A stretch of 64,000 bases of DNA, from assembly GCA_037045245.1 (NCBI GenBank), contig JBAOHR010000007.1:860604-924603 (forward strand), given 5' to 3'. Both the position numbers and the translations under genes were made by a program. Shown piece after piece: positions 12,492 through 64,000 of the stretch (position 1 is its first letter; each line of letters begins with the position of its first letter). Under the pieces are notes generated by a model, which was not told the DNA's origin, did no database searches, and worked only from the letters and a program-made list of their open reading frames with translations. The DNA is from Gemmatimonadales bacterium. GTDB lineage: Bacteria > Gemmatimonadota > Gemmatimonadetes > Gemmatimonadales > GWC2-71-9.

Positions 12492-12492
12492 G

Positions 12493-20350: not shown

Positions 20351-20539
20351 GAGAGAATAACCTATCTGATGGGTTTGCTCAAGCGGCAGACTACGACCAC
20401 ACCGGAGCATGCCCTCCACTGCGGAACGGCCGTGGCACCGGTTCACGCCCGGCCACACCCGATGCCGCCACCCGCCCGCCTGTCACGGGTTGGGGGTATC
20501 ATAGGAGGTCTCCACCGCACCCCTCCCGACGGATCTCCC

Positions 20540-29641: not shown

Positions 29642-29739
29642 GGGGATCCTTGGACCTGGGGGAGAGGGCGGGTTGGACGTGGGGAGACCGTATAAGTCTA
29701 GGGCTGGCGCGGGGTTGGCGCCAGTTGGAGGTTGCCCGT

Positions 29740-29785
29740 GTCATCCTGAGCGGAGCCCGCGAAGCGGGCGGAGTCGAAGGACCTC
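29740..29785. repeat. half copy of the GTCATCCYGAGCG palindromic element
   Basis: GTCATCCTGAGCGGAGCCCGCGAAGCGGGCGGAGTCGAAGGACCTC has the same left arm as the copies at 40476 and 42783. Confidence 0.6.
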
Positions 29786-41522: not shown

Positions 41523-42559
41523 CTAGACCATCGCCCCCCGCATCACCGCCGCCGCGACCAGCTCGGCGTCGGCGCCGACGCCACCGATCAGCGCCGAGGC
41601 GATCCGGCGCTGCTGCTGGAGCCCGACGAAGTGGAGGCCGGGGGTATCGCGCGCCGCGCGGATCCAGTCGTGCTGCGGCTTGAGGCCGGTGCACCAGATG
41701 ATCGTCGCAGGCTCGAGCACCTGCTCGCCGCAGATCGGCATCCCCTCGATCTCGCCGGAGAAGCGGCCGACGCGGACGATCCCGGCCGCGGGAATCGACG
41801 CGCGCGGGATCCCGATCAGCGAGTCGCCGCCGCTGCCGCGGGTGATCCGCCGGCCGAGGCGGGTGTCGAGCGGGAGCTTGGAGATCACCGGCCAGATCCA
41901 ATCGAAGAGGTCGCGGCCGAGCACGCGGCGCGGGAGATAGCCGGTGTCGCGGCCGGCGAGCCAGACCTTCCGGAAGCGGGCGATCTCGAGCGCGATCTGC
42001 GCGCCGGACGGGCCGGCGCCGACCACCAGCACGGGCCCAGGGGGGAGCCCGAACGGGTTCTGGTACTCCAGCGACGTCAATCTGCAGGATGTCTGGGGGC
42101 GAGTCGTTCCGCCCCCTTGGGGATCACCGGCTGCGCGAAGGCGCCGGTGGCGACGACGACCTGGTCGGCCTCGATCCGCTGCTCGCCGACGGTGAGCCGG
42201 AAGCGGGTGCCGTTCCAGTCGAGCGCGTCGACCGCCGAGTTGCCGCGTACCGGCAGGTCGAAGCGGCGCGCATACTCGGCGAGGTACGCGGCGACCTCGT
42301 CCTTGTCGGGGAGGTGATACGACGGCGCGGGGAACGGCATCCCGGGCAGCGACGAATAGCGCGCCGGGGTGAAGAGCCGGAGCGAGTCCCAGCGGCTGCG
42401 CCAGCTCTCGCCCAGCTCGGCGGCCCGGTCGAGAATCACGAAGTCGGCATCGTACTTGGCGAGGTGATAGCCGGTGGCGAGGCCGGCCTGCCCGGCGCCG
42501 ATGACGACGGTTTCGAAGCGCTCGACGCGAGACGGCGCGGTGACAAGCTGGTCGAGCAT
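41523..42559 (-). pseudogene. FAD/NAD(P)-dependent flavin monooxygenase-like oxidoreductase, frame-disrupted
   Basis: The N-terminal half is 42077..42559 (VVIGAGQAGLATGYHL, FAD GxGxxG). The C-terminal half is in the 41523..42764 frame (VLVVGAGPSGAQIALEI, second GxGxxG). The junction at about 42085-42110 seems to pass through the third frame (PDILQI), i.e. two 1-nt insertions about 20 nt apart. Confidence 0.75.
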
Positions 42560-45142: not shown

Positions 45143-45286
45143 GGGTGAACGGCGAACGGGATGATGGATGATGGATGATGGATTCCCCCGCCCCCGACCG
45201 AAGGGAGGGCGGCGGGGCCTCCGAACTAGACACACTCGGTACCGCTCCGACTGCATGACCGAGTGCAGCGACTTCGGAGGCCCCGC
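45143..45286. repeat. GGTGAAC + GATGGAT heptamers + family-2 palindromic element (truncated right end)
   Basis: GGGGTGAACGGCGAACGG; GATGATGGATGATGGATGATGGAT (45160-45183); CCCCGCCCCCGACCGAAGGGAGGGCGGCGGGGCCTCCGAA..CACTCGGTAC..GACCGAGTG..CTTCGGAGGCCCCGC. Confidence 0.75.
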
Positions 45287-45558
45287 TCGACCACGCGCGA
45301 TGTAGTCCCCAGCCGCGACACTTGCGACGCGAAGGCTGCTAGCTCCCCACATTCTCACGAAGGAACCGGGCACAAAAAAAGAGACCCGGGATCGTCACCA
45401 CGCGGCGAACAACACCAAGTGGGAGAGGACTTGCCCGGGGACAGTGACCGTATGGTACGAAGTAGCGATCCATGATGCAAGAGATGTAGGCGGAGGCGGG
45501 GACGTCGAGAGCCTGCCCTGAACGAAGCGAAGGTCCGTGCTGCGCGCTGAAGGACTGC

Positions 45559-45858
45559 CTAGGCAACTTTCCGCGTGCGCTTTACCGTCAGGGTGACGTG
45601 GACCCCGGCATGGGCAAGCATGTTGACCAACCCATCGATACTGAAGAGTTCGATACGCCCACGGACCAAGTCACTGATGCGTGGCTGCGTGACGCCGAAG
45701 AGTTGGGCACCAGCGGCTTGGGTCAGCTTGCGGCCCTCGAGCATGCGACGCACCTGCACCATCAATTCGGAGCGAAGCCGCAGGTTTTGCGCCTCTTCGG
45801 GGGGGAACCCGACATCGCGGAACACGTTGCCACTGGAGCGCTGCACCTTCGTTGCCAT
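45559..45858 (-). CDS. XRE-family HTH protein (HigA-like antitoxin type)
   Basis: 99 aa. SSGNVFRDVGFPPEEAQNLRLRSELMVQV...KLTQAAGAQLFGVTQPRISDLVRGRIELFSIDGLVNML follows the pattern of antitoxins paired with Gp49/HigB-type toxins. GGAGG lies upstream. Confidence 0.75.
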   Translation of the reverse strand: MATKVQRSSGNVFRDVGFPPEEAQNLRLRSELMVQVRRMLEGRKLTQAAGAQLFGVTQPRISDLVRGRIELFSIDGLVNMLAHAGVHVTLTVKRTRKVA

Positions 45859-46126
45859 GTGGGCTACCTCCTCGAGCGCGAGCGGATCAGATCGCGCAAC
45901 CGTCTTGGGGATAGCTCGATATACAAAGTTCAGTATTGTCCGTCAATCTGCGCCTCCGGGTTGCCCGAAGGATGGAGGGCTGATCCTGGGCCCGCGGAGG
46001 CGATTTGGACGCGGGAATGGACGCGGAAATGCAGGAGGAACGCAGCGGCGCGGGGTGACTTTACAGCCGCGCATGCCTGCCCTGAGCGAAGTGAAGGGTC
46101 AATGCGCGGCGATGGTGGGAAGATCT

Positions 46127-46290
46127 GTCATCCCGAACGCAGTGAGGGACCTGCGTGATCGCGAATGGGCAAGCGCTTGCCCGCTCACGACTACGCAGGT
46201 CCCTCGCTTCGCTCGGGATGACGGATTGGGGGGTACCGAGTGTATCTGCTTCGGAGGCCCCGCCGCTCGGGCTGCGCCCGAGGGCGGGGA
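46127..46290. repeat. full GTCATCCYGAGCG element + right half of family-2 element
   Basis: GTCATCCCGAACGCAGTGAGGGACCTGCGT...ACGCAGGTCCCTCGCTTCGCTCGGGATGAC (46127-46222); GGTACCGAGTGTATCTGCTTCGGAGGCCCCGCCGCTCGGGCTGCGCCCGAGGGCGGGGA (46232-46290). Confidence 0.8.
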
Positions 46291-46300
46291 AACTCCATCC

Positions 46301-47334: not shown

Positions 47335-47758
47335 CTAACGGTGGCGTGGTCGGCCTTGTGCGGTGCAGCGCCAAGTAGGTGGGCAGCGCGGCGCAAGAAC
47401 GGCGGCGATGTGCCCCGACTCCAGCACCGCGCCGAAGTGCCCATCGCAGAAGCGATCGTATCGCACGTGCCCGTAGAGCAGTTTGCGGAGCGTCACCAGG
47501 CGGGCGCGACCGAGGGCGCGTGGGTCATGCATCAATTCATCGGCGCGCCGGCCCCACGCGCTCCAGTTGAATTCGATCATGACACCCGACTCGTAGAGTG
47601 CCTTGTGAAGGCGCATCCCGACCGGTGCGAGGTCGTAGTAGGGGAATTGCCCTTCCTTCCACACCATCCGCCCGGCCTCGAAATCCGGTGCCTCGAGCTC
47701 CGGGAAGAAAGGCGAGGACGTCGCCCCAGTGAGGGGTGTCGGTGTTGCGATTTGGCAT
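47335..47758 (-). pseudogene. DUF6508-like protein, one frame change
   Basis: RALGRARLVTLRKLLYGHVRYDRFCDGHFGAVLESGHIAAVL resembles the DUF6508 C-terminal signature as I recall it. The ATG at 47758 (MPNRNTDTPHWGDVLAFLP) is in the 47537..47812 frame and joins ELEAPDFEAGRMVWKEG in the 47335..47955 frame. Confidence 0.35.
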
Positions 47759-47804
47759 TGCGGAAATGTAGGGTGTGGGTGTGACAGCGACAGCACGCCA
47801 GCCG

Positions 47805-48298
47805 TTATCCACGAAACCAGTGGCCTGACATGTCGGCCTTCAAGCCGGACTTGGCGATCAACAGGGCTGCACATGCCGAGCAGACTCTGACAATGCCACG
47901 ATTCGACTTGGTGAACTGGTGGAAAATCGAACCGAGTGCGTGGCACTTTGCGCAATGGCCTCTCTCCGACACCAAACGATCCCGTGTGGTGTGGAGCTGA
48001 ATGGGCTCCTCCGGGGCCGATTGAAGTCGCTGGTCATACAGTGCATCGTTGGGAACCACCGTGACCGTACGCGTTGCCACGACGTGAATCAGGCGTGAGC
48101 GGTGGCCGCGACGGCGCGCTGCGTTGGGGCGAGGGGCGCCTGAGAACGGGCGCTGGCGCGACCTGTGGAACAGGTGGCTTTGGTTTCTCCCGCGGTGGTG
48201 GCGCTGCCACCACTTTGCCTCGGCACGTGCTGCTCGTGGGCCTTCAGCAAGCGGACATCGAAATACTCGGCACACTTGGTACATGCTCGAAGTCTCAC
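47805..48298 (-). pseudogene. possible zinc-finger protein, one frame change
   Basis: The N-terminus MRLRACTKCAEYFDVRLLKAHEQH (C2H2-like, 48089..48298) continues in the 47805..48284 frame with ..HCAKCHALGSIFHQFTKSNRGIVRVCSACAALL. Confidence 0.2.
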
Positions 48299-52183: not shown

Positions 52184-53060
52184 CTACGGCTCTCCAAGCC
52201 CCAGATCCGAGTGAATTTCCACGCCGAGAACGGCCCGAAGCCCGATCAGTGAGGCCGGCAGCTCCCCGCCCAGCGCAAGGATGACCGCGCAGTCGACATG
52301 CCTCTGCTCAGCCTTCGCTTCTGCTTCGATCACGGCGAGGTAGCTCGACGCATTGAAACATGCCCCGCACGACCTCGCCGAGGCTGGCGTTTGGCGGCTT
52401 CACTTCGACCGCGATACGACGCGCCGCGGAAGAGAATTCCACGTCGAGGCGATCTCCAGAGTAGAGACACACTTCCATCCTGCCTGGAGCGAGGGACGCC
52501 GGCAGCCCGACAAGTTGTGGGCGCGCGGCCACTGCCTTCTTGAGAACGAAGATGGCCCCTCCCCTCACCAACCCCTCCGCCTGCGCCGACTTCCTCCACC
52601 GGGGGTAGTGCGCTAGACGGTGGTGGGACCGGATCGAGATCATAGCGGCGAAGCACCTCAGGCCATCGATCGAAGGAGAAGACCTTACTCAACATCGCAT
52701 CGATGATGATCCGCCGCTGCCGTGGCGAAGCCTTGGTGAATGTCTCGGCGTCGGGCGCAAACCACGAAATACCCTCCCCCGGCAAGCCGCTGTCCCGATT
52801 CACAACCAGCGCTTGGATTGGGGGCACTTTCTACTCGTCCGAGTCCGACCCACCTCCAACATCGAGTTGCCGATCGCCCCAAGCACGTAATTGAGATTCC
52901 GTGGGTTCGGCATACCGAGCTCCAGAGCGAGCTCGCCGTAGCGTATCGTCTGACCGGCTATTGCTTGGCGAACAAGGATCGGGAGGGCAGCACGAGCTCG
53001 AACTTGGTATAGCTTGTCGCCATTGAGGTCACCCACCAATGCTTCCCCAGTTTCCGTCAC
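52184..53060 (-). pseudogene. MGMT/Atl1-like winged-helix domain fused to PD-(D/E)xK nuclease-like domain, about three frame changes
   Basis: The N-terminus TIRYGELALELGMPNPRNLNYVLGAIGNSM (52800..53060) continues as VPPIQALVVNRDSGLPGEG (52330..52827). The nuclease core is DRLDVEFSSAARRIAVEVKP...RGMFQCV (52308..52643). The tail is YLAVIEAEAKAEQRHVDCAVILALGGELP..-stop at 52184. Confidence 0.45.
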
Positions 53061-53305
53061 GTGTCACCCCCCAGTATGCCCAATTCTCCTTGATCATCCG
53101 GCCTCTCCTTCCGCGGTGGGCCAGATGGTGCCACAAGTCGACCTTCAGCAATTGCGAGAAGTTCGCGCTCGAGCTGCTTCGCGCGATCCGTAGTTCGATA
53201 CGAGAGCTCAGAACGGATGTCACCAAGGATCTGGCCGTTGTGAAGATTCTCGCGCGGGCTATTTTTTAGTTCGTCGAGCGTGGTCTTGAAGAACGGTCGA
53301 GTCAC
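53057..53305 (-). CDS. hypothetical small protein
   Basis: 82-aa ORF overlapping the downstream start by 4 nt. Helical and charged. No family recognised. Confidence 0.3.
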   Translation of the reverse strand: MTRPFFKTTLDELKNSPRENLHNGQILGDIRSELSYRTTDRAKQLERELLAIAEGRLVAPSGPPRKERPDDQGELGILGGDT

Positions 53306-53393
53306 GATATGCCATCCGTCAGGGGAGCTGGATTGTCCAATTCTGTCATTTCACTGCTTCTACTAGGATAGCCCTGCCAGCGGATCGCCTCCT

Positions 53394-54109
53394 TTACCAT
53401 CGCCCGTTCTGCTGCCCTGCACCCTCACCGGTGTCATCCTTCCATTGCCGCCGCCACACGTTCTGCAACCGAAAGCACGGGTGCACAATGGACACGATGA
53501 CGCAGGGTGGGATCGAAGCTCCCGCAAAAAGCACATTCTCTATGAGCGAGTGGCCGGCGGCGTCCCATTGCTTGAAACTGCCCTTTGCCGTCCAAGGGCT
53601 AAGCTGGGAGGAGAGCGGTCCAAGGAAGGGGGGACGTACTTGCCCAAGGCGAGGATGAGTGCTGGCCGCTGAGTAGCGACCTGCGTCATGAAGAACTCCT
53701 GACAGCGTTTCACGAAGCTCGGACACTTTGAGCCAGGGAAGCGACCTGTCGTCTCATCGCCCTCCCTCAGCCCCATATAGATGTTCGTGAAAAAGCACTG
53801 CTCCTTTGGGACTGCGACGTCGTCCAAGAATGTGCAGAGATTCCGCCAGGTAGGAGACTTTAGGTTCTCCTCTTCATGCTTCTTGGACCATTCGTACCCG
53901 GCCTCGTTATGGAAGTCGTGGCCCAAGACCATGATGCCGCCGACCGGGAACACTGGGAGTTCTCGCGCTCCCGGCATCCAAAGTCCAGTGCCACCCGGAA
54001 AAGGCTCTGTCCCCACGATTTGACTGGGGACTTCGACAACTCCCTCTGGATACGGCGCAATTCCTTGGTGAGCTTGCCAAAGTGCCAAACTGGGATGGAT
54101 GTCGCTCAC
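53394..54109 (-). pseudogene. uracil-DNA-glycosylase-fold-like protein, one frame change
   Basis: The GTG at 54109 overlaps the upstream stop (GTGA). GGIMVLGHDFHNE and CFFTNIYMGL are placed as UDG-superfamily motifs A and B would be (weak). The C-terminus continues in the 53394..53726 frame (ALILALGKYVPP/FLGPLSS..). Confidence 0.35.
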
Positions 54110-54778
54110 AGCCCAGCTACGGGCAGAAAGACGTTGACGACACCTGATTTTGCGAGGTCACCGGAAATTCCGAGGTGCTGGTACACCTTGGGGAGCGCGG
54201 CCTTCCACTCTGCCGCCGAGCCAGGCCCTTTCATGTCATGATCGCCGTAGAAGTAGAGGAAGACCAGATGCGCATCAACACCGTGGCTGCGCAAGAATGC
54301 AAGATGCGCCAAACGATTAGCATACTGATAGAAGCCATTGAGCCAATCGGCTTCAGCCGGCGCCCCGAATTCGTGCTTCGTGCGATCAAGAGAGCCCCTG
54401 ATGACCGCAAGAGACTTGGCACCCGCTCCACAGGAGGAGGAGAGTTCGCCGAAATGGGCCTTCGCCTCGACGAGGATCACCTCACCGGCAGAACCAACGC
54501 CAAGCGCATCCCATTGCGGACCCCCAATCGGCCAGAACTGCTTAAGCGCGGGCAGGAGAGTTGGCTGCCGAACGGATCGCAGGAACCCAGCATCCCGGTA
54601 CTCTGCGAAATCATCCGCCTCACGCGGGGAAACCCACTCGACGGTCCAGGTGGATTTTCATTCACGACCGGGCGGATCGCCTCGGAAAGAAGAGTGGGCT
54701 GGCTGTTCAGCAGTCGCTGCATCCACTTAAGGCTGCCGCGAGTACCAACGGGCTGTGGGGTCCGGGCGCAATTCGCAT
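54106..54778 (-). pseudogene. PD-(D/E)xK nuclease-like protein, frame-disrupted near the N-terminus
   Basis: Core GPQWDALGVGSAGEVILVEAKAHFGEL (D ... E-x-K). The ATG at 54778 is coupled to the GmrSD stop (TGATG) with GGGAGG upstream. Reading then needs shifts near 54710 and in the A-run near 54660. Confidence 0.5.
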
Positions 54779-56505
54779 CACACACCTCCCGAGCTGCTGC
54801 TGGGCGCGATTCCGAGAAAGGAATTCAACCGGGCAACGATCATCGCGCGTCGCGAATTCAGGAATTCCGGGTACTGATCAAGCGGCAGGAGGGTAGGATC
54901 ATCTGGAATGCATTGGGTACTGAAGGCTTCCGAGCCTGCCCGGCTCACGATCTCCGGAAAGTACGCTTCCGGCTTCTTGTCCCGGATGAACTTATTTGTC
55001 GCGGCGCTAATGAATGCCAGATTCGCGATATCGTCGATTTCGCGCGACGGGAAGCGATTTTTCAGCTGTGCCTTCGGGAATATGTGGTGAAACTCGAGCT
55101 TGTGCTGTGAGCCACTGTGATCCAGCGCGATCGCCACCTTTGAAAGCCACTCCTTAGCGCCTTCTGCCCGGAACGCAAGAAACATCGTCTTGAATAGTGC
55201 ACTACGTTGCGTCCTCCCCTCCAGGTCCAGGGGAGTGATCTCGAGGCGACCGACCTGCAACTGGAGTCGGCCGAGGAGGTCAGCAACAGATTTCCCTTCC
55301 TTCACAACAGTCAGATCCTGATCCAGAATCGTCTCGCTGGAGCCCCGGGAGTAGCGTCCTTTTGCATTCGCCAGGAGGGCCCAGCGCGCCAGCTCAACCG
55401 ACTCTTCCGGGGTAAGGTGGAATCGGCGATGGTGCCCATAGTATCCGAGAGTGATCATCAGAAATGGAGAGGAAAGCAATACAGGTGAAGTGATCCCACA
55501 GTTATTGCGAAGAAAGTTGATCGCGAACTGCATCCCGCGAACGCCTGCCTTCCAGCTCTCCTTCAGCACCTCAAGCGGTAAGCTCCCGACGGTCTTGAAG
55601 CGCGACTGTCCCGTCCCATAGACTACGAGATTTTTGAGGTGGATGCCGAGATCCAGCTCAAAACCTTCCCCCTCGCATTCCTCCTGGAACCCCTGGAACA
55701 CTTTGAGACTGCCACGCCAACGCGCAGTGATTTGTGCTAACGCGAGGTCCGCGCTGCGGAGTTTTGCTCCAAGCGAGTTGACCCGCACAAAGATTTCCGT
55801 GACTTCGTCGTATGAGAGCGAGCGATCCAAGACATCGAGACGGTAGACGTACTTCTTGACGGCGCGCAACTTGGCGAGTCGCTGGGTGTACTTGTCAGCC
55901 CGTGGATCATCGAGATCCGTGACGCCAGCGCGCTTGAGAAAGGCACTGTCTCCCTCGGACTTGAGCACATCCGTCACTTTAACCCATTGTGGCAACTGTT
56001 CCAGCTTCTTGGTCGAAATGACGAAGGTCATCCGATTGAAGCGTTGCAGAAGCTCGTCCTCGGTCGAATCAGCCTCATCACCATCCACCTCATCGGCCTC
56101 GTCTTCATCCACGCCTTCCTCGTCGACCTCAGATACCACCTCCAGCCGATCCGGGTGTTCGAGGTTAAAGAGGAGTTCAATCGGAAGCTTCCTGCCGCGG
56201 ACCAAGAGTGGTTCCCCTCGCAGCACCGCAGAGAGGGAGGTAAGCCGCTGCTGCCCGTCAAGAAGCAGCCTCGTCGTGCGGAACGGGTTGCCCTCTTGGG
56301 CAATGGCCATTTCCTGTTGCGGTATTGGGTCGTCGGATTCCCAGAGCAGAATCGCGCCAGATGGGTAGCCCCGGTATAGCGAGTCGAGGAGGTCGCGGAC
56401 CCGTGTCGAACGCCAGACATAGCGGCGTTGCATTTCGGGGAGGCGCAATTCGCCGCGCTGGATCATGCCGACGAGCTCTGCAACTTCCGCCTCTGCCTTT
56501 GCCAT
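54778..56505 (-). CDS. GmrSD-family type IV restriction enzyme (DUF262 + DUF1524)
   Basis: 575 aa, intact. DUF262/ParB-like motifs LPEMQRRYVW, YRGYPSGAILLWE and LLLDGQQRLTSL. DUF1524 His-Me finger: KLEFHHIFPKAQL...DIANLAFISAATNKFI. Confidence 0.9.
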   Translation of the reverse strand: MAKAEAEVAELVGMIQRGELRLPEMQRRYVWRSTRVRDLLDSLYRGYPSGAILLWESDDPIPQQEMAIAQEGNPFRTTRLLLDGQQRLTSLSAVLRGEPLLVRGRKLPIELLFNLEHPDRLEVVSEVDEEGVDEDEADEVDGDEADSTEDELLQRFNRMTFVISTKKLEQLPQWVKVTDVLKSEGDSAFLKRAGVTDLDDPRADKYTQRLAKLRAVKKYVYRLDVLDRSLSYDEVTEIFVRVNSLGAKLRSADLALAQITARWRGSLKVFQGFQEECEGEGFELDLGIHLKNLVVYGTGQSRFKTVGSLPLEVLKESWKAGVRGMQFAINFLRNNCGITSPVLLSSPFLMITLGYYGHHRRFHLTPEESVELARWALLANAKGRYSRGSSETILDQDLTVVKEGKSVADLLGRLQLQVGRLEITPLDLEGRTQRSALFKTMFLAFRAEGAKEWLSKVAIALDHSGSQHKLEFHHIFPKAQLKNRFPSREIDDIANLAFISAATNKFIRDKKPEAYFPEIVSRAGSEAFSTQCIPDDPTLLPLDQYPEFLNSRRAMIVARLNSFLGIAPSSSSGGV

Positions 56506-56546
56506 CCGGGCTCCTTGATTCTGTGATCTAGCTCACCTGCCCCAGC

Positions 56547-57377
56547 CTAATCCATCCGGCAGTATCCAGGGATATCCTGAATCGACCCGCCACGAACGTT
56601 GGTTTGCTTCGCAATACTCAACTGCTTACACTGCCGGTACTTCTCCTCCGTCTGGAAGAGGAGATACCCGTGCGGATCGAACAACGCTCCGGGAAACCTC
56701 TCCAGGTTATTGTACCAGCAGCCATCCTTGTGGTAGAGCGCGTGACGCACGGAGACGTGCCACCGCTTGGCTAGGCCCTTTCCGCTGAGGCGCCCTCCTG
56801 CCCGCTCCGGCATCGTCGTGCCCCCCCTTTGCTTACGCTTTACATCACGTGGCTTGCTCGGCGGGCGGTCGGAGCCCATCTCACTACGTTGCAGTTCCGT
56901 CACAACCTCCCAGACCTTCTGAGTAGCCACGGAGAGTACTGAGGCAAAGGCTTCAATCTCAGAGGGGTCCATGGAAACAAACTCTACGGAGGGCGCGCTC
57001 CCCCTTGGGCGCTGCCTTCGGCTGACGCGAACGGGCCTCCCGGTCTCAGCCCAGTACCCCCAAGATGAATGGAGCAAGCGGTTGCGCTCCTCCCCGAGCC
57101 GACCGAGGTGAGCTGCGAGAGCAGCGGTGTCCATGGGCACACTGGTGACACCGGGCGCCGCAGCGAGGACAGCCACGAGCCGATCCGTCATCCATCGATA
57201 ACCGGCGCCGACAACTACTGCTCGCGCCCTCGCGTGTTCACCCAAGGCAACAAACAGGAGATGTCCCAGCGCTTCTTCAAGCTCTGCAAAACGGAAAACG
57301 ACATGGCCGAGCGATCGGTAGAGTTCGTCGGTGACCTTCTGCTCCTCGGCATGACTCACAGCGTCACCCACCATCAT
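56547..57377 (-). CDS. HEPN-like domain protein with unassigned C-terminal domain
   Basis: 276 aa, intact, with an ATGA overlap to the upstream gene. The helical N-domain has an Rx4H motif (GEERNRLLHSSW). A basic linker is followed by the C-domain RWHVSVRHALYHKDGCWYNNLERFPGALFDPHGYLLFQTEEKY. Confidence 0.55.
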   Translation of the reverse strand: MMVGDAVSHAEEQKVTDELYRSLGHVVFRFAELEEALGHLLFVALGEHARARAVVVGAGYRWMTDRLVAVLAAAPGVTSVPMDTAALAAHLGRLGEERNRLLHSSWGYWAETGRPVRVSRRQRPRGSAPSVEFVSMDPSEIEAFASVLSVATQKVWEVVTELQRSEMGSDRPPSKPRDVKRKQRGGTTMPERAGGRLSGKGLAKRWHVSVRHALYHKDGCWYNNLERFPGALFDPHGYLLFQTEEKYRQCKQLSIAKQTNVRGGSIQDIPGYCRMD

Positions 57378-58150
57378 TCAAAGTCGGCATCGAGTGGAGA
57401 GCGTCGAGACTTGTTGGGCGATTTACGCAGCGCCAATAAGTCTCGGTGTCTCATAAGCCAATCAGTCCCCTTCGCCGTGAGAGCGTACGCCGTATACTCC
57501 TCACCATTGTACCCTTGGTTCTCAAAGGACTCGAGAAGTCCCTTGACCCCAAGAGCCTTGACGCCCAGAACTGCAGCCAAGTGGGTGAAGCCAGCCTTCG
57601 CCATATCGTTCTTGATCGCATGTGCCGAGGGAGCGGAATCGCGATCAAGTTCGTACTCCGCGATCAGCGCTAGGGCAGTCATCTCTATGGCATCAAGGCC
57701 CTCGGTCTCCTCCAAGGGGGATTCCACAAGAGTGGAAATCACAGATTCTCGCTGCATCGCGGCCGCGAGCCGCGTGGTGAGCTCCTCCGTGAACGTCGCA
57801 AAGTCACTCGAAGAGTCCCTCCGGTACTTCACTACGTGGCGGTGCTGTACGTCGAAGGGAAAATGGGTCCGGCTCCCCTCGTCGCACACGAGTACAAGCG
57901 GCAAGCCAGTTGCAATCGCAACCCCCAACTCGAACCACACGTTCGGATTATCAATGGAGATATCCGCCACGCAAGCCACGGCTCCACGAATTCCCTCCAT
58001 AATTGCGTCGATGGGAATGCTTGCGCGTGGATCACGGTCCACACGATATGGTTCGAGGCCAGCAGCGACGATGGCGGGAGCAATGACATCGTCGTAGCGC
58101 TTGTCGAAAGGGCCACCATCGAATGGTTGAATTACGAAGCATGTGGACAC
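57374..58150 (-). CDS. nucleoside 2-deoxyribosyltransferase / TIR-like fold domain + C-terminal winged-helix-like domain
   Basis: 258 aa, intact. The GTG at 58150 abuts the upstream TAA and has GGAGG 6 nt upstream. The pattern CFVIQPFDGGPFDKRYDDVIAPAIVAAGLEPYRVD...IMEGIRGAVACVADISIDNPNVWFELGVAIATGLPLVLV fits that fold. Confidence 0.55.
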   Translation of the reverse strand: MSTCFVIQPFDGGPFDKRYDDVIAPAIVAAGLEPYRVDRDPRASIPIDAIMEGIRGAVACVADISIDNPNVWFELGVAIATGLPLVLVCDEGSRTHFPFDVQHRHVVKYRRDSSSDFATFTEELTTRLAAAMQRESVISTLVESPLEETEGLDAIEMTALALIAEYELDRDSAPSAHAIKNDMAKAGFTHLAAVLGVKALGVKGLLESFENQGYNGEEYTAYALTAKGTDWLMRHRDLLALRKSPNKSRRSPLDADFE

Positions 58151-59186
58151 TTAACCCCTCCAGACATGGGCGGTGGAAGCGTCAAAGTACGATATCGACA
58201 AGGGCCGCGAGGATGGCCGCCGCGACACGACTTGGTTCGCCCGGCGACGAATCCGCAAATTGTCCGGTGAGAAGGGGTCGCCGTACAACCCGACGCATAA
58301 CTGTTTGCACTTGTTCTTTTCAATGAGCCGGATGACGTGGTCATCGCCTGGGTCCATCGAGTGCCCGTATACATAGAGCGCCCCGGAAATCCCGAGCAGA
58401 CTCTTGTGCCCACGTACCAGATAGTCACTGTGCCGGATCTGGGCACGTTTTGCGGTGCTGTCCCCATCTGACACGTAGATCGGGTAGAGCTCCTGTTCAA
58501 GTGCGGCCCGAATCTGATCCATCAACGCTTCCTGCGTATTTCGCCACGTGTACTTCTGGACCTCGTGGCCGCCATCAAAGATGTGAAGTGCTCCGTGTAG
58601 ATAGAACATCTTCTGGTTGTACGAATTTTCCATTTCCCACGTTACGTAGGGCGCGGGTCCATCTTCGGGAGTTCTAAACCCATCGCTAAACTCTAGGTTC
58701 GGCAAAATCTCCGTCTGCATGACCGTCCAGTACAGCAGGAGGTCATAGTTGAGTGTGTAGACGTCGTTGAACCTCGACAGAAAGCGGCGAGCGTACCCGT
58801 ACTCCGCCGCGGAGACCTCCGACGGACGGCTCGGATGCCTCCTCCCGAGGGTTTGGACGAGCACTTCTTTGAGTGCAGCGGCATCCCTACGAAGGATCGT
58901 GATGACGTCCTGCTGCCCAGGAAGGTATTCCTCAAGAATTTTCGCAGCTGACCTGCAGGCCACGCATAACGGTTTCAAAATTTTGGGTTTGGAGAAGGTC
59001 AAATGCTCGGCGCCCGTGTGCACTCAATCTCTCAAAGTTTGCCTGTTCATAGAGTGCACCGTAGGCAAATACATCATCTCGCCAAGCTCGACTGAAGCCG
59101 TTGCCAAGAAGTAAGTGCCGCTTCTTTTGATCTGGCTCTAGCGCGATGGCGTCCTCAAATGAGATCACATCAAAGCTCTCACTCAT
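58151..59186 (-). pseudogene. DUF4917 / SIR2_2-like protein, one frame change
   Basis: The ATG at 59186 (MSESFDVISF..) overlaps the HNH stop (ATGA). HLLLGNGFSRAW is in the 58932..59213 frame. VYTLNYDLLLYW, FYLHGALHIF and YVYGHSM are in the 58151..59023 frame. The switch lies between 58935 and 59020. Confidence 0.7.
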
Positions 59187-59959
59187 CTCGCTACCATCCT
59201 GATGCGGTGCCATTCAAGGTATGGTCCATGCCCGGCACGAAGTCCTTGAATGCTATGACTGCCAGTCAGACCCAGCACCCGCCGCTCCAACTCACCCAGC
59301 CTCTCGGACACCAACACTTCGCCACCCCCCCCAATTCCAATTAACCCCGCATCGAACGCCGCATCTAGGTGTGCCGCCAACAACAGCCCGTTGTGCACAT
59401 CGAGCCGCTCGGCGTCGGTGCAGTCCTTCCACGGCTTGGCATGGCTGGCGCGGAGCAGCTCCCGCTGAGACACCCCGGTAATCGCGCACCGCCCGCCCCA
59501 ATATTTCTCCAAGGCATCGCGAAACAGATCCTGCCCAACGCGCTGCTTGACCTCCGCAACCCGCTCTGTGGTCCGCGGGCCAGGCATGGAGGCAAGCGTC
59601 GCCTCCACCTCTTGCTCCCATCGCTGTTGCGGTTGGTTCGGCAGCACTTGCCCGAGGAGAGCGATTCGGCGTAGCAAGGCGTCGAGGGCCCGGTCACCGT
59701 GGCAGGCCCATGCCGCCGCCGCGCCATCGGGCATTGGACCTTCCAGGGACGCGCACCCATCAACGGGCCCAACCTCGGCCACAAGCGCCCATGGGCCCGA
59801 TGCGACGATGTGATTGTTGCCGTCCCCTGCCAACCAGACGCTCGCCAAGTTGCCCGCCGCGCCGAATCCGAGCCAGCCACTTCCGGCCGGCACAGGAAGG
59901 TTGAATCCAGCGTCGTTGGCCCTCATCCGAAGCAGAGTGTTGTCGCGATAGGAAGTCAT
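59183..59959 (-). CDS. HNH endonuclease (HNH_2 type), probable nuclease partner of the methyltransferase
   Basis: The ATG at 59959 shares one base with the MTase stop (TGATG). The motif is RVGQDLFRDALEKYWGGRCAITGVSQRELLRASHAKPW...ERLDVHNGLLLAAHLDAAFDAGLI. Confidence 0.8.
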   Translation of the reverse strand: MTSYRDNTLLRMRANDAGFNLPVPAGSGWLGFGAAGNLASVWLAGDGNNHIVASGPWALVAEVGPVDGCASLEGPMPDGAAAAWACHGDRALDALLRRIALLGQVLPNQPQQRWEQEVEATLASMPGPRTTERVAEVKQRVGQDLFRDALEKYWGGRCAITGVSQRELLRASHAKPWKDCTDAERLDVHNGLLLAAHLDAAFDAGLIGIGGGGEVLVSERLGELERRVLGLTGSHSIQGLRAGHGPYLEWHRIRMVAR

Positions 59960-62900
59960 CAGGCTGTCCCGATCAGCCGGTCCCACGCCTCGAGGACGAG
60001 GCGGCGGGTGCGGTACTCGCCAAAGGCGCGAGCTTCCTGGGCCCTTAAGGATCGAAACGTCTCCGTGGGATAGCCATCACCCTTCGCGGCCTCCGGGTCC
60101 AGAATGAAGAGCAGATCACTCCGCGACAATCCGTATAGTTTTGCGACGTACACATCAAGTTCCGCGCGCACGGTTGCGGCGGCTGACTGTTCAAGGGTTC
60201 CGGAAGGGGGTTGCAGCCCGAGTTCGGTCGCCAACTCGAGCGAGAATGCGAAGCTCCGACCCTCGCCGGGCCCGACGAGGGCTAGCACCCGTCGCCCAAG
60301 GTCCACCGCAATTGATGCGTTCACTTGACTGGGCGTTGGGATTGCAATCTGACGCATCGTAAAGAACTTGAACGCCGTTCCTCCGACCTTTTGTCGGGCG
60401 ACATAGTCGGCGGTGAGGGAATTCAGAATGGCCAACAGACATCCAGACTGGAGGACGGAGCCCGAAGGAAACATCAACAGGAACTTGTCTCCTACACCGT
60501 ACCGTGGGATTACTGCAGAGATTAGTGTCCTTTTGTCTGTGGCCCGGGCGATATCCCGCCAGCCCAACAACCACGGCCGGTCCCACCCCTTGGCGTTGAG
60601 TCGCGCCTCAACCTCTTCCTGCGGCACCCAATAGCGCGGGCGCACCTCGAAGTTCGGATCCCGCTTCTCCTCGGCGGTGACGTTCCGGGCAGCGTCTTCA
60701 TCGGCACCAGTATACGTGGCCCATCGATGATCGTATTGATGGATCATTTTGGCCTCGTACAACGGCAGTAGGCCCGGCCCGGGGGCTGTCTCAAACAGCC
60801 CCGAATCGCTAGTCATGTTGAACAACCCCTGCCGGAACTGGATCCCCCGAAGCGTTCCCATCCTCCCTCGTCTCATCCCAGAGCACGGGGACATTGCGAT
60901 AGATCTTGGCAGTGAGCTCGGCGTCGGCCTTCGAGCGGAAGATTGGCGCGGTTCCGGTGTTTGGATTGAGGCGCTTCAGGTCTTCGGCCGTGAGAGTGAA
61001 GCGGCGCCTTTCATCGAAGCGCTGCTCCGCCTGAGAAAGGAAGAAGGCGAAGGTTGGCTCTGCGAGGCGCCCGATCGTGAGCAAGCAAAACTTGAAGCTC
61101 CGGTGCACGCCCTGAAAAAGCGCCTCCCGATTCTCGAAATCGATGAGCGACGCCAATCGCCCATCAGCCACGTGCCGGAAGAAGGGTGCTGTCCCGGCGT
61201 CACTGGCGATGCCTGAGGGGAGAACCAGCCCTGCCCGACCATCACGGTGGACGAGCTGCAGCGCGACTTCTGCAAACAGGGCGTACAAATTGACGATCCC
61301 ATTGCCGGTCAGCGGGAAACGCCGACCACCACGCGCATACGAGCTCGTCGCCTCGGAGAGGTGGCTCGCCGCCTGATAGGCCTGAAACAGGCGCCATCCC
61401 GGCGAGTCGATTGGCTCATGCTGCAGCGCCTGGATCATTCGGTCGCGAATGGCCCCGGTCGCCGCCTGCGCAATCGCAGGAGCCCGCACGCTGAAGAACT
61501 CAGTGTCGTTCAACGTGACCTTCTCCCACGGGGGATTCCCCACGACGCAATCGAAGCCGCCTCGAGCCATGATTGGGGCGAAGGTGATCGGCCAGTGGAG
61601 GAACGGAACGGACGCCGCTACCTCCGCCACCATCGTTCGCATCGCCTCAGGGACCGCCACACCAACCCCAAGATTTCGGAGCGTCCCCGTCGTTGGGAAG
61701 TGCTGGCGCGTGCGATCGTCTTTGCGAAGGATGAATGCCGCCACGTAGGCATCGCACGCGAATCGGAAATCGGTGTCCTGAGCAGCACGAGCTCCTGCCA
61801 GTGCCGCTTCCTTCGCGGCGACCTCGCTTAGCGTGCCATCGGGCATCGCCTCCAGTGCCGTTAGCGTGGCAGTCCAGGCGGATTGGTCAAACGTCAAGGC
61901 AAACTGGCCCGCTCCCCTCTCGCGCTCCAAGTCACGGCGCTCGCCACGGTTTCGCGTCTTCAACGCCGTAGCTGCGGCCCGGTCGTCCCCGGTGAGCGGC
62001 GTGAATGCCTCGTCTGGGATCCCTTCCGCGAGTACCGCCGGGTCATGGATACCGAGGATGCCATCGCCGTGCACGAGGTGATGCGCCAGGAACGCCAAAG
62101 GCTTCCCAGGCTCCATCGCCTCGAGCCAGAGAGCGATCCGCGCCAGCTCCACGGCCATTGGATTCTTGTCGACGCCGTAGCAGCAGCGCGAGATCACTTC
62201 GCGAAGCGCCGAGCGGAAGGCCTGCGGACCTGGCGTTCCATCGCTCCGGAGCTTCGCCAGATGTCCAGCAATCCGCCGCGCCGCGCCGAGCAGAAAGTGC
62301 CCACTTCCCATGGCTGGATCGAGAATCGAGAGGCTTAAGAGGGCGTGCTCAGGGTCGTCCGCAGCCAATGCCCGATCGATGAGGGGATCGAGAGCGGAAT
62401 CGAGCAGCGCCTGCACTAGGGAATCAGGGGTGTAATAGCTCCCCGTCAACCTCCTCGCCGTACCTTGCCCAGCTGCGGCGACGGCCAGTGGCGCATTCGG
62501 ATCAGGATCGCCCACGAAGCCAAATCGCTGGGCCCCGTCGTGAACTTCCGGGACGAGCTCGAGCAACGACTCGTAGACACTCCCCAACTCTTCAGTCCCC
62601 ATGTCGCGCCAGTTTACGCGCACCAGCGCGTTCCCCTCGGTCAGCCACGTGAGCCGGAACACCGCCTGCAATAGCGCGTGATTGGGGAGCCTGACGCCCT
62701 CAAGGTCCGGACACTGACTTGCCTCGAAGAGGCCGCCAAGCCCGGGAAGCGCCAGTCGCGGCTCGCCGGCAGCGCATCCCCGAAACGTCTGCTGCAGCCC
62801 GTCCCAGGCATCATCGTGACGATCGTGCGAGCGCCGCCGAACCGCCCGCTCCCGCAGACGGCGGAGACTGTAGCCGTCCCGGTAGGTCGCCAGCGCTGCC

Positions 62901-63835
62901 TCCGCGCTTCCCGGGGGGTGCAGGAGTTCGCGCTCCTCGGCGACGAGAAGGAAGATCAGGCGGTAGACCAACCGGAGGAGCTGCTGCTCATAGCCCGCGG
63001 CATCGAGAGCACCGCTGGTAAGCGCCTCCCTCAGCACGGCGTTTCCGGGATGCGCCAGGAAGCCATTCCCTAGAGCGCGGAGTGCCTCCTCGACACCATC
63101 GCGCAACCGGTCCCGTGCCGCCGTGCCAGACTCGAGCGATTTGCCCCGCCACTGCTCAAGGATGGCTTCGTGCGGAGGAGCGTCCGCAGTCCCGAACCGT
63201 GACTCGTGCAACAGCAACCAGAGAAGCGAAAAATCGGCGTACCGCTGTTCACCGAAGATTCGGGCAAGGTCGACCTCGATCCACGCCGGTCGGGTCAGCG
63301 AAGCATTGTCCCGCACCAATCGAAGCACCTGCCCGTTCGTGGCGACACCCCACAAGGCCGATTGCTGAGCGTTCAGATACTCCTGGACCAGCCCGAACGC
63401 CGAGCGCCGCTTGGTCCCATCGCCGAAGCGGACGTCCCCAGCGTCGAGGTCCTGTTGCCCGGGTGCGACGACCAGCGGAACCCGGCCCCCAACCCCGACC
63501 GCGGTTAGGAGAAAGCCCCGATCCTCAACAATCATCGGACTCGTCATCCGAACCAAGGAACCCCATCCGAAGGCCTCCGTGAGCATCGCCATCACGGCCC
63601 GCTGACGCCCCTCAGTCTGAGGCCCGGCAGCTTCGACGTCCCGCCAATGTGCTTCGGCGATGCGCCATGCTCGGCCGATTTCGTCGCGAATCTGCAAACC
63701 GCGGGGCAACTGGTACGCGTCAGCGGTCTGCTGACCAGCCTCAAGGCTGGCGACCTGGGCGAGGAAGTCTGCGCTCAGTAGCCCGCCCTCGAGCGAGATG
63801 GACTCAAAGGCGAGCTGTGGACGGCGCCGACTCAT
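59959..63835 (-). pseudogene. Eco57I / type IIG-like N6-adenine DNA methyltransferase (~1290 aa) with large N-terminal domain and TaqI-like specificity region, one frame change
   Basis: The ATG at 63835 overlaps the upstream stop (ATGA). SAM motif ILDPAMGSGHFL and catalytic motif VVGNPPWEK. N-terminal ALWGVATNGQVLRLVRDN. The C-terminal part LPLYEAKMIHQYDHRWA.. is in track ORF 59959..60894. The frame switch lies between 60809 and 60894, next to a GGGGG run. Confidence 0.85.
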
Positions 63836-64000
63836 GAGCCCGCCACGGGGAGAAGGATCCATGCCCCGACAACGTCGACCGGCTCCTTGGCCAGCACCGA
63901 ATAGGTCCCTCGAGCCCGCGCCGCGTCACGGACGCGCCGGTGATCCGCCAGCAGCGCTTCAGCGCGGCGTTTCGCAACATCGCCCAATGCCTGCTGGAAG
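63832..64000 (-). CDS. 3' end of an upstream gene of the same operon (partial)
   Basis: An open frame runs to the window edge: ..FQQALGDVAKRRAEALLADHRRVRDAARARGTYSVLAKEPVDVVGAWILLPVAGS-stop. The stop overlaps the MTase ATG. Identity unknown. Confidence 0.4.
   Translation of the reverse strand, partial: FQQALGDVAKRRAEALLADHRRVRDAARARGTYSVLAKEPVDVVGAWILLPVAGS

What the first reader, a model, noticed from the sequence alone, without database searches (positions are those of the whole stretch)
52184..64000. About 12 kb all-minus-strand defence island with almost every junction translationally coupled
From 52.2 kb to the window edge every gene is on the minus strand. The junctions are overlaps: ATGA at 63832-63835, 59183-59186 and 57374-57377; TGATG at 59957-59961 and 54776-54780; GTGA at 54106-54109; and a 4-nt overlap at 53057-53060.

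The content is exclusively nucleic-acid or nucleotide-targeting:
- N6A methyltransferase, HNH
- SIR2-like, NDT-fold, HEPN-like
- GmrSD, PD-(D/E)xK, UDG-fold
- wHTH-PD-(D/E)xK

This density and coupling suggest one or two long polycistronic units rather than a loose island. The upstream end lies outside the window.
Basis: partly seen in the sequence, partly recalled or inferred. Interest (0 to 1): 0.7.

Follow-up and report, generated by a model that had tools for sequence, protein, structure and literature searches.

The report
Mosaic defence island, partly frameshifted
This 12-kb stretch is a real, tightly packed row of anti-phage genes, but it is a patchwork of at least five independently travelling modules (the first being the tail of a recently described ARMADA type I system), and five of its eleven genes are broken by frameshifts in this genome.

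Summary
Every gene from 52184 to 64000 is on the minus strand, and 7 of 10 junctions overlap by 1-8 nt. One more junction abuts with no spacer. All seven quoted strings are present, but the TGATG at 54776-54780 opens only a 23-codon ORF. The real start there is GTG 54785, an 8-nt overlap.

They break the methyltransferase, DUF4917, the PD-(D/E)xK gene, the UDG-like gene and the wHTH-nuclease gene. Relatives carry all five as single ORFs.

The "one or two polycistronic units" reading is only partly supported. The right end is the 3' part of an ARMADA type I system (YprA helicase, SNF2, PglX-like methyltransferase) with an HNH gene that is conserved after it. Two sub-blocks are colinear elsewhere, in L012 and L098, with the same junction types.

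Wider comparison shows the modules vary independently:
- ARMADA-HNH occurs without the rest in six loci.
- The NDT-like gene has no adjacent partner in 80 of 80 metagenome loci.
- The GmrSD slot holds non-orthologous genes.
- The UDG-like gene and both nuclease genes also occur alone.

Verdict: an operon-packed, mosaic, partly decayed defence island. It is a new member of a known kind and of moderate interest.

The parts
63832..64000 (-). Last 56 codons of an SNF2 / BrxHII-like helicase (ArmA-like). The gene continues beyond the window edge.
   Evidence: 81% identical to the C-terminus of the 936-aa SNF2 protein of L001. That protein matches DpdE at 2.7e-181, DrmD at 3.3e-76 and BrxHI|BrxHII at 3.5e-68.
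59959..63835 (-). PglX/DrmMI-like N6-adenine methyltransferase (ArmB-like, about 1290 aa). A +1 frameshift near 60846-60860 splits it into ORFs 60809-63835 and 59959-60894.
   Evidence: Eco57I 6.3e-16 and N6_Mtase. DrmMI 2.6e-61. The two ORFs hit consecutive parts of one type IIG profile, positions 747-963 and 976-1229 of 1250. The single 1294-aa L001 protein aligns to the window in two frames that meet at EDGNPWG.
59183..59959 (-). HNH_2 endonuclease, 258 aa, intact. Residues 1-126 form an N-terminal domain with no family match.
   Evidence: HNH_2 9.8e-12. PADLOC HNH 1.1e-25. PDB 6yex (EVE-HNH VcaM4I) 3.9e-20. Present downstream of the methyltransferase in L001, L002, L005, L006, L009, L010 and L012.
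58151..59186 (-). DUF4917 (SIR2-like, PADLOC candidate PDC-S21). A frameshift near 58944-58960 splits it.
   Evidence: The two ORFs hit DUF4917 profile positions 1-53 and 70-311, and PDC-S21 positions 3-76 and 74-335. The intact 344-aa L012 homologue aligns in two window frames.
57374..58150 (-). NDT/MilB/DNPH1-like nucleotide N-glycosidase-fold domain plus a C-terminal winged helix. 258 aa, intact.
   Evidence: 1740 homologues, many with PF05014. AlphaFold model with pLDDT 83. Best PDB matches are MilB and BcmB, then TIR and DNPH1. A weak profile hit (E = 0.0021) to a putative transcriptional regulator covers profile positions 193-245.
56547..57377 (-). 276-aa fusion. Residues 1-172 are HEPN-like. 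Residues about 189-276 are a small unnamed domain (RHALYHKDGxWYNN...FPGALFDP).
   Evidence: R98 and N99 are invariant and H103 nearly invariant in 31 relatives. Weak HEPN Pfam hits. The family is rare: 46 clusters among 1.84 billion. The L012 homologue stops at 176 aa. The C-terminal domain matches the C-termini of about 160-aa proteins.
54778..56505 (-). GmrSD/BrxU-like type IV restriction enzyme, 575 aa, intact. It has its own AAGGAG ribosome-binding site.
   Evidence: GmrSD_N 3e-28. HEC-05 1.1e-42. The DGQQR and C-terminal HH..P..N motifs are visible in the translation. Junction sequence.
54106..54785 (-). PD-(D/E)xK-like gene A, about 226 aa. A 1-nt deletion at about 54649 breaks it.
   Evidence: 89% identical to the intact L098 ORF and 72% to the 224-aa L099 ORF. 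The deletion is located by DNA alignment. The D...EAK motif is visible in the translation. No Pfam or PADLOC hit.
53363..54109 (-). UDG-superfamily gene B, about 246 aa. Broken by a 1-nt deletion at about 53628, an 8-nt insertion (GCAGGGCA) at about 53413-53420 and a 1-nt deletion at about 53379.
   Evidence: 340 homologues, many with PF03167. Indels mapped against L098. The GTGA overlap with gene A is conserved in L098 and in L099-L101.
53057..53305 (-). Gene C, 82 aa, intact, no family match.
   Evidence: 90% identical to the 82-aa ORF of L098, at the same position and with the same 4-nt overlap onto gene D.
52184..53060 (-). Gene D, a winged-helix plus PD-(D/E)xK-like protein of about 290 aa. 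Broken by three frameshifts, near 52832-52845, about 52545-52600 and about 52350.
   Evidence: The 290-aa Chryseobacterium plasmid homologue aligns in window frames -3, -2, -3 and -1. The repaired protein aligns in one piece at 42% identity over 97%. L098 is 89% identical over the first 115 aa.

Best explanation
The region is a horizontally acquired, operon-packed defence island built from at least five modules. Each module has its own evolutionary distribution.

(1) The 3' part of an ARMADA type I system. It consists of an SNF2/BrxHII-like helicase tail, a PglX-like methyltransferase and an HNH nuclease that is conserved behind it. The YprA-family helicase is expected about 3-8 kb beyond the window edge.
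(2) DUF4917 (SIR2-like), an NDT-fold protein with a winged helix, and a HEPN-like protein. These are candidate nucleotide- or RNA-directed effectors.
(3) A GmrSD/BrxU-type modification-dependent nuclease.
(4) A PD-(D/E)xK gene overlapping a UDG-superfamily glycosylase-like gene.
(5) An 82-aa gene overlapping a winged-helix PD-(D/E)xK gene.

Shown: the modules sit head to tail on one strand with overlapping or abutting stop and start codons. These junctions are inherited with the blocks.

Inferred: the arrangement allows read-through transcription and some translational coupling, as described for defences "embedded" in larger systems.

Inferred: ARMADA acts on unmodified invading DNA, and the GmrSD and HNH genes (and possibly the UDG-like gene) act on modified DNA.

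In this genome five of the eleven genes carry frameshifts. Much of the array is therefore probably inactive or recently decaying.
For: ARMADA type I assignment.
- Six relatives of the methyltransferase have enough upstream sequence: L001, L002, L005, L006, L009 and L010. All six carry, in order, a 1750-1765-aa DEAD + MZB (DUF1998-type) helicase, a 936-aa SNF2 helicase and the methyltransferase.
- That is the order given for ARMADA type I in bioRxiv 10.1101/2025.09.15.676423.
- That paper's Table S1 lists ARMADA type I helicases in Achromobacter marplatensis, Pigmentiphaga, Luteimonas and Gemmatimonadota.

HNH. It follows the methyltransferase in 7 of 7 relatives that have downstream sequence.

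Inherited blocks and junctions.
- L012 is colinear from the methyltransferase to GmrSD at 40-65% amino-acid identity. Its junctions are an 8-nt overlap, a zero spacer and a 4-nt overlap.
- L098 is colinear for genes A-D at 89% nucleotide identity, with 4-nt overlaps.

Independent variation.
- Only one of 80 NDT-like loci has a DUF4917 gene, and it lies 2.5 kb away. None has the HEPN-like, HNH or GmrSD homologues.
- The GmrSD genes of the three colinear loci are 24-28% identical.
- The UDG-like gene lacks gene A in L102, L103-L105 and L106.
- Genes A and D occur singly on plasmids.

Foreign origin. GC drops by about 10 points.

Frameshifts. Documented. Ten genes in 0-17.5 kb have full-length domains.

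Precedent. Payne et al. (bioRxiv 10.1101/2024.01.29.577857) report that GmrSD-like genes are often embedded in larger systems, and that embedded genes are co-oriented with the host system in 96.7% of cases.
Against: - No transcript data exist. The promoter and terminator scans were at or below the shuffle expectation and are uninformative.
- The YprA helicase and most of the SNF2 gene lie outside the window, so the ARMADA assignment rests on relatives.
- The block HNH-DUF4917-NDT-HEPN is conserved in L012 at only 52-65% identity, junction types included. This could reflect functional linkage rather than co-transfer.
- Only two colinear relatives were found, and each is a short metagenomic contig.
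- The frameshifts may be assembly errors. In that case "partly decayed" is wrong.
Confidence: 0.75

Rival explanations
1. The whole array, or two halves of it, is one integrated multi-gene defence system. Its genes are co-transcribed, translationally coupled and functionally interdependent.
For: - 7 of 10 junctions overlap and one abuts.
- L012 keeps the order MTase-HNH-DUF4917-NDT-HEPN-GmrSD and the same junction types at 40-65% identity.
- L098 keeps genes A-D.
- No terminator-like site above chance.
Against: - The modules occur separately in most relatives.
- L001 has the closest methyltransferase (69% identity) but lacks the DUF4917-NDT-HEPN trio.
- The GmrSD slot holds non-orthologous genes.
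- GmrSD has its own spacer and Shine-Dalgarno sequence.
- Overlaps of this kind are common elsewhere in the window.
Confidence: 0.12
2. The frameshifts are assembly or consensus errors, for example from a long-read metagenomic assembly with lower coverage of accessory DNA. On this view all eleven genes of the island are intact in the organism.
For: - Frameshifts also occur outside the island. A helicase AAA_12 domain is split between frames at 23.1-23.9 kb. A kinase is truncated at 28.9 kb. A flavoprotein is split at 42.08 kb.
- Some indels lie beside C5-6 or G5 runs.
- Mismatches to L098 are mostly at third codon positions: 143 of 226. The genes were therefore under purifying selection until very recently.
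- The source contig is 937,611 bp.
Against: - The distribution is very uneven. There are none in ten full-length genes across 0-17.5 kb, against at least nine in 12 kb here.
- One change is an 8-nt insertion and another is a net +2 complex change. Several single-base changes are not in homopolymers.
- These are atypical of homopolymer read errors.
Confidence: 0.3
3. The island is a dead remnant. All modules, including the ORFs that still look intact, are non-functional leftovers, and the compact layout has no present role.
For: - Five of eleven genes are broken, three of them more than once.
- In ARMADA type II, deleting the methyltransferase gene abolishes defence. The methyltransferase here is broken.
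Against: - HNH, NDT-like, HEPN-like, GmrSD and gene C keep full-length ORFs.
- HNH, NDT-like, HEPN-like and GmrSD keep their conserved motifs.
- Divergence from L098 is dominated by third-position changes, so any decay is recent.
Confidence: 0.15

Closest known systems
ARMADA type I (disARM-related Antiviral Defense Array; Bell et al., bioRxiv 10.1101/2025.09.15.676423)
   Same: - A PglX-like N6-adenine methyltransferase preceded by a BrxHII/RapA-like SNF2 helicase.
- In all six informative relatives a YprA-family DEAD + DUF1998/MZB helicase comes first, giving the order YprA, SNF2, methyltransferase.
   Different: - An HNH_2 nuclease follows the methyltransferase in this clade. In five relatives an LmuB-like ATPase lies between them.
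- HNH is not mentioned in the main text of the paper.
- The methyltransferase is frameshifted here.
- The YprA gene is not visible in the window.
DISARM class 1 (DrmD, DrmMI, DrmA, DrmB, DrmC)
   Same: - The best PADLOC hit of the methyltransferase is DrmMI (2.6e-61).
- The upstream helicase of the relatives hits DrmD (3.3e-76).
   Different: - In the relatives the helicase and the DUF1998 module are one DruE-like protein, not separate DrmA and DrmB.
- No protein of L001 or L010 scanned with PADLOC or Pfam hit a PLD nuclease (DrmC).
Defence genes embedded in or appended to larger systems, such as BrxU/GmrSD in BREX and the HEC candidates in Hma (Payne et al., bioRxiv 10.1101/2024.01.29.577857)
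   Same: - Co-oriented, tightly packed accessory defences, including a GmrSD-like HEC-05 relative, sit next to a large methylation-associated system.
   Different: - Here the accessories trail the system rather than sitting inside it.
- They form a chain of about nine genes, several of them with no PADLOC model.
Brig1 / Brig2 antiviral UDG-superfamily DNA glycosylases
   Same: - Gene B belongs to the UDG superfamily. Many homologues carry PF03167.
- It lies in a defence island beside modification-dependent nucleases.
   Different: - The profile search found only weak matches in the PDB, to family-4 UDGs at E of about 0.15-0.6.
- In three of six lineages (window, L098, L099-101) it overlaps a PD-(D/E)xK gene, whereas the Brig-type UDG-family defence glycosylases are treated in the cited preprint as individual proteins.
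- Other members sit in non-defence contexts.
PADLOC candidate PDC-S21 (DUF4917, SIR2-like single-gene candidate)
   Same: - Full-length profile match once the two ORFs are joined: 2e-21 and 2.3e-85.
   Different: - Frameshifted here.
- In the window and in L012 it is fused head to tail with an NDT-fold gene and a HEPN-like gene.

Membership tests
ARMADA type I | PglX-like N6-adenine DNA methyltransferase | tested here: met
   Eco57I and N6_Mtase domains. DrmMI and PglX PADLOC hits. 69% identical to the L001 orthologue. The reading frame is broken once.
ARMADA type I | BrxHII/RapA-like SNF2 helicase immediately upstream of the methyltransferase | tested here: inconclusive
   Only the last 56 codons lie in the window. 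They are 81% identical to the C-terminus of the L001 SNF2 protein and overlap the methyltransferase start by 4 nt.
ARMADA type I | YprA-family DExH helicase with DUF1998/MZB, of the ARMADA clade, encoded first in the operon | not testable with these tools
   It would lie beyond coordinate 64000, and the source contig could not be retrieved. It is present in 6 of 6 relatives with upstream sequence, as DEAD + MZB with DruE-like hits.
ARMADA type I | Vsr-type nuclease at the C-terminus of the YprA helicase | not tested
   Not examined in the relatives. Pfam found only DEAD, Helicase_C and MZB in the L001 protein.
DISARM class 1 | Separate DrmA helicase and DrmB (DUF1998) genes plus a DrmC PLD nuclease | tested here: not met
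   The relatives have one fused 1750-1765-aa helicase + MZB protein. No scanned protein hit a PLD nuclease.
GmrSD / BrxU type IV restriction | N-terminal DUF262 with the DGQQR motif and C-terminal DUF1524 with an HNH-like motif, in one protein | tested here: met
   GmrSD_N 3e-28. HEC-05 hit covering residues 166-565. LLLDGQQRLTSL and FHHIFP...N motifs in the translation.
PDC-S21 / DUF4917 | Full-length DUF4917 domain in a single gene | tested here: inconclusive
   The domain is complete only across two reading frames. It is intact in L012.
HEPN superfamily | Rx4-6H catalytic motif in a four-helix bundle | tested here: inconclusive
   The R-N-x3-H motif is invariant or nearly so in 31 relatives. 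HEPN Pfam hits are weak, at E = 0.012-0.035 in 4 of 31 members. The pLDDT-92 model is mostly helical, but Foldseek found no PDB match below E = 0.4.
NDT / MilB / DNPH1 nucleotide N-glycosidase fold | NDT-like Rossmannoid fold | tested here: met
   Many homologues carry PF05014. Foldseek top hits are MilB and BcmB at E = 1e-4 to 7e-4, followed by TIR and DNPH1. Catalytic residues were not assessed.
UDG superfamily (Brig-type defence glycosylases) | UDG fold, and demonstrated excision of a modified base | tested here: inconclusive
   UDG superfamily membership rests on sequence: many homologues carry PF03167, and the repaired window protein scores E = 0.0045. No sequence link to a solved defence glycosylase. 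Activity cannot be tested here.

The most novel reading that the evidence does not exclude
Two readings remain open.

(a) In the lineage shared by the window and L012, an ARMADA type I system is hard-wired to a second layer. HNH, a SIR2-like DUF4917, an NDT-fold N-glycosidase-like protein and a HEPN-like RNase are fused to it by overlapping stop and start codons. The result would be one transcription unit coupling a DNA-targeting first line to nucleotide- or RNA-directed effectors.

(b) The overlapping PD-(D/E)xK and UDG-like pair, sometimes joined by an ASCH gene, is an undescribed two-gene system. The glycosylase would excise a modified base and the nuclease would cut the resulting abasic site.
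Probability: 0.15. Interest if true: 0.6.

Novelty: new member of a known kind. Interest (0 to 1): 0.35.

Why it matters
It gives a worked example of how defence islands are assembled. Independently mobile modules are welded head to tail behind a large methylation-associated system, here ARMADA type I, described in 2025. The welded junctions can persist down to 50-65% protein identity.

It yields three testable leads:
- An HNH nuclease associated with one clade of ARMADA type I.
- A DUF4917, NDT-fold and HEPN-like trio.
- A PD-(D/E)xK and UDG-like pair.

It also carries a caution for sequence-only reading. In this window several apparent gene ends are frame breaks inside genes. At 42077-42080 a break even mimics an "ATGA coupling".

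Tried and rejected
- Retrieving the source contig to extend beyond 64000. Exact-protein look-ups for four window proteins found nothing. The protein database lists two of them as coming from a 937,611-bp contig.
- Megablast of the island against plasmids: no match.
- tRNA and Rfam scans to find an integration site: none.
- Repeat search for island boundaries: only short, chance-level repeats.
- Promoter and terminator scan: at or below shuffle expectation, uninformative.
- Phase variation as the cause of the methyltransferase frameshift: rejected. The site is a single inserted C beside a G5 run, with no long repeat tract.
- The apparent frameshift at 18549-18555: rejected. It is two separate WYL+WCX genes.
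- The DISARM class 1 label suggested by the top PADLOC hit: rejected on gene content.
- Fold search of the HEPN-like model: no significant match.
- PDB profile search for the UDG-like family: only weak family-4 UDG hits.
- Pfam on the C-terminal domain of the 276-aa protein, the HNH N-terminal domain and gene C: nothing.
- DUF4917-NDT-HEPN as a widespread cassette: rejected. None of 80 NDT-like loci has it.

Full report
**1. What is in the sequence**

The window has about 67-72% GC up to roughly 47 kb. GC then falls to 0.58-0.62 between 52 and 61 kb. ORF listing, codon-usage scoring and homology place all genes from 52184 to the window edge on the minus strand.

In transcription order the genes are:
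- the last 56 codons of an SNF2 helicase (63832 to beyond 64000);
- a PglX/DrmMI-like N6-adenine methyltransferase (59959-63835);
- an HNH_2 endonuclease (59183-59959);
- DUF4917 (58151-59186);
- a 258-aa NDT-fold protein (57374-58150);
- a 276-aa HEPN-like fusion protein (56547-57377);
- a 575-aa GmrSD (54778-56505);
- a PD-(D/E)xK-like gene A (54106-54785);
- a UDG-like gene B (53363-54109);
- an 82-aa gene C (53057-53305);
- a winged-helix plus PD-(D/E)xK-like gene D (52184-53060).

**2. The junctions**

Six are true stop/start overlaps.

The TGATG at 54776-54780 is not. Its ATG opens only 23 codons. The L099 homologue of gene A starts VSVESRTPQPVGTRGSLKW, which matches the frame of GTG 54785. 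GmrSD and gene A therefore overlap by 8 nt.

Two junctions were not listed. DUF4917 and the NDT-like gene abut with no spacer. GmrSD is preceded by a 41-nt spacer containing AAGGAG.

In all, seven of ten junctions overlap and one abuts. Elsewhere in the window, about 5 of roughly 33 co-directional pairs are exact 4-nt overlaps, and 4 more calls overlap by other amounts. An ordinary ABC-2/HlyD operon at 12.6-16.1 kb has three 4-nt overlaps in a row. The packing is operon-like, but it is not unusual for this genome.

**3.

- Methyltransferase. It is split into a 1008-aa and a 311-aa ORF. These hit consecutive parts of one type IIG profile. The single 1294-aa L001 protein aligns to the window in two frames that meet at EDGNPWG. 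The cause is one extra C beside a G5 run.
- DUF4917. It is split at profile positions 53 and 70. L012 has an intact 344-aa version, which aligns in two window frames.
- Genes A to D. L098 is 89% identical at the DNA level and carries all four as open frames. Against it the window shows:
  - -1 at about 54649, in gene A;
  - -1 at about 53628, in gene B;
  - +8 (GCAGGGCA) at about 53413-53420, in gene B;
  - -1 at about 53379, in gene B;
  - a net +2 at 52832-52845, in gene D.
- Gene D has two further shifts, shown by a Chryseobacterium homologue that aligns in frames -3, -2, -3 and -1.
- The repaired proteins align in one piece to homologues: gene D over 97%, gene A over 92%, gene B over 97% at 80% identity.

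That makes at least nine frameshifts in five of eleven genes.

**4. Are the frameshifts real or assembly errors?**

Frameshifts also occur outside the island.
- A helicase AAA_12 domain is split between frames at 23.1-23.9 kb.
- A kinase domain is truncated at 28.9 kb.
- A flavoprotein is cut at profile position 141 of 305, at an apparent ATGA overlap at 42077-42080.

However, ten genes across 0-17.5 kb have full-length domain matches. The distribution is therefore very uneven.

The 8-nt insertion, the complex +2 change and several non-homopolymer single-base changes are not typical read errors.

Mismatches to L098 are mostly at third codon positions, 143 of 226. The genes were under selection until recently.

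I judge real, recent decay more likely, at about two chances in three. Only the reads can settle it.

**5. The right end is ARMADA type I**

A scan of 185,579 species genomes with the methyltransferase found 11 loci. Six have enough upstream sequence: L001 (a Gemmatimonadetes MAG, 69% identity), L002, L005, L006, L009 and L010. All six carry, in order, a 1750-1765-aa DEAD + MZB (DUF1998-type) helicase with DruE-like PADLOC hits, a 936-aa SNF2 helicase (hits to DpdE, DrmD and BrxHI|BrxHII) and the methyltransferase.

This is the composition and order defined for ARMADA type I by Bell et al.. Their Table S1 lists ARMADA type I helicases in Achromobacter marplatensis, Pigmentiphaga, Luteimonas and Gemmatimonadota.

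DISARM class 1 is the top PADLOC label, but it does not fit. The helicase and DUF1998 module are fused, and no scanned protein hit a PLD nuclease.

An HNH_2 gene follows the methyltransferase in 7 of 7 relatives that have downstream sequence. In five of them an LmuB-like ATPase lies in between. The main text of the ARMADA paper does not mention HNH.

The HNH domain matches the modification-dependent EVE-HNH enzyme VcaM4I at 3.9e-20.

**6. Do the genes travel together?**

Partly.

Two colinear relatives were found.
- L012 is an 8.4-kb contig. It carries methyltransferase, HNH, DUF4917, NDT-like gene, a 176-aa HEPN-like gene and a GmrSD, at 40-65% identity. Its junctions are an 8-nt overlap, a zero spacer and a 4-nt overlap.
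- L098 carries genes A-B-C-D at 79-94% amino-acid identity with the same overlaps.

Beyond these two, the modules separate.
- L001, with the closest methyltransferase, goes straight from HNH to a different GmrSD (HEC-05 at 1e-210, 24% identical to the window's).
- The GmrSD of L012 is only 28% identical to the window's, over 99 residues.
- Five other ARMADA-HNH loci contain none of the downstream genes.
- Among 80 metagenome loci with NDT-like homologues, one has a DUF4917 gene 2.5 kb away. None has the HEPN-like, HNH or GmrSD homologues.
- Three further NDT-like contexts show the gene among other defence genes, including OLD-like and Shedu SduA_C genes.
- L099-L101 keep gene A and gene B overlapping, followed by an ASCH gene.
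- L102, L103-L105 and Rubrobacter (L106) have the UDG-like gene without gene A, partly in non-defence surroundings.
- Gene A occurs alone on an Azospirillum plasmid. Gene D occurs alone, beside Abi genes, on a Chryseobacterium plasmid.

**7. The individual proteins**

- The NDT-like family is large, with 1740 hits. Its model has pLDDT 83. The best matches are the CMP/hmCMP N-glycosidases MilB and BcmB, then TIR and DNPH1. A C-terminal winged helix is suggested by a weak profile hit.
- The HEPN-like N-domain is rare: 46 clusters among 1.84 billion. It has an invariant R-N-x3-H motif and only weak HEPN Pfam hits. Its pLDDT-92 model has no significant PDB match.
- The C-terminal 88 residues of the 276-aa protein are a separate small domain. 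It is otherwise found at the end of about 160-aa proteins, and once fused to a 5'-nucleotidase.
- DUF4917 is the family of the Campylobacter sirtuin SliP and of PADLOC candidate PDC-S21.
- Payne et al. found their chosen HEC-05 representative to be 99.2% identical to BrxU, and they report that GmrSD-like genes are often embedded, co-oriented, in larger systems.
- UDG-superfamily defence glycosylases (Brig1, Brig2) are known. Gene B shows no sequence link to a solved one.

**8. Conclusion**

The best explanation is a mosaic, operon-packed defence island anchored on the 3' end of an ARMADA type I system. Its modules are appended head to tail and their junctions are inherited with the blocks. In this genome the island is partly broken.

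The reading that it is one or two integrated polycistronic systems is not excluded for the HNH-to-HEPN block shared with L012. The wider comparisons argue against it for the island as a whole.

This is a new member of a known kind, with three modest leads worth testing.

Noticed in passing
window 19826-23943 (+): A gene of about 1350 aa for an RNase_H_2 domain plus an SF1 helicase (AAA_11/AAA_12). It appears broken by two frameshifts: AAA_12 profile positions 16-55 and 88-194 lie in different frames.
   Followed up: partly
window 26442-29740 (-): A Ser/Thr kinase domain stops at profile position 198 of 263. It is followed by several abutting coding segments in other frames and by a TPR region. 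This is probably a frameshifted kinase-TPR gene.
   Followed up: partly
window 41523-42559 (-): A Pyr_redox_3 flavoprotein ends at profile position 141 of 305, at an apparent ATGA overlap at 42077-42080. Coding signal continues in the next frame. This is a probable frameshift that mimics a translationally coupled junction.
   Followed up: partly
window 56547-56810 (-): The C-terminal 88 aa or so of the 276-aa protein form a small unnamed domain (RHALYHKDGxWYNNLxxFPGALFDPxGY). Elsewhere it sits at the C-terminus of about 160-aa proteins. One of these gave a faint SeqA_N-like hit at its N-terminus. It is also found once fused to a 5'-nucleotidase.
   Followed up: partly
L002, L005, L006, L009, L010 at about 14.5-16.9 kb: In five relatives an ATPase of about 649 aa, LmuB-like (Lamassu SMC-type), sits between the ARMADA type I methyltransferase and the HNH gene. 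It is absent from the window, L001 and L012.
   Followed up: partly
L011 (Xanthomonas phaseoli CP094243.1) 10001-13732: The methyltransferase homologue survives only as several short fragments. No SNF2, YprA or HNH homologue is nearby. It looks like a decayed remnant of the same system.
   Followed up: no
L099 (GCA_020051655.1) 1-7232: DUF4917, a type III-like restriction-modification pair (N6_N4_Mtase and ResIII), a gene A homologue, the UDG-like gene and an ASCH gene lie in one co-oriented array. This is another island that reuses some of the same parts in a different order.
   Followed up: partly
window 17599-19589 (-): Two adjacent WYL + WCX (PafBC-like) regulator genes with a 4-nt overlap. 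They were first suspected to be a frameshift but are two genes.
   Followed up: yes
window 45183-46292: A pair of 61-nt inverted repeats 988 nt apart, and a 52-nt palindrome at 46123-46226. They lie just upstream of where GC starts to fall.
   Followed up: no
window 47338-48033 (-): A DUF6508 protein (4.2e-23). The stretch 48.5-52 kb has poor coding signal and no family hits apart from one weak TPR match, so the left flank of the island is itself atypical DNA.
   Followed up: no
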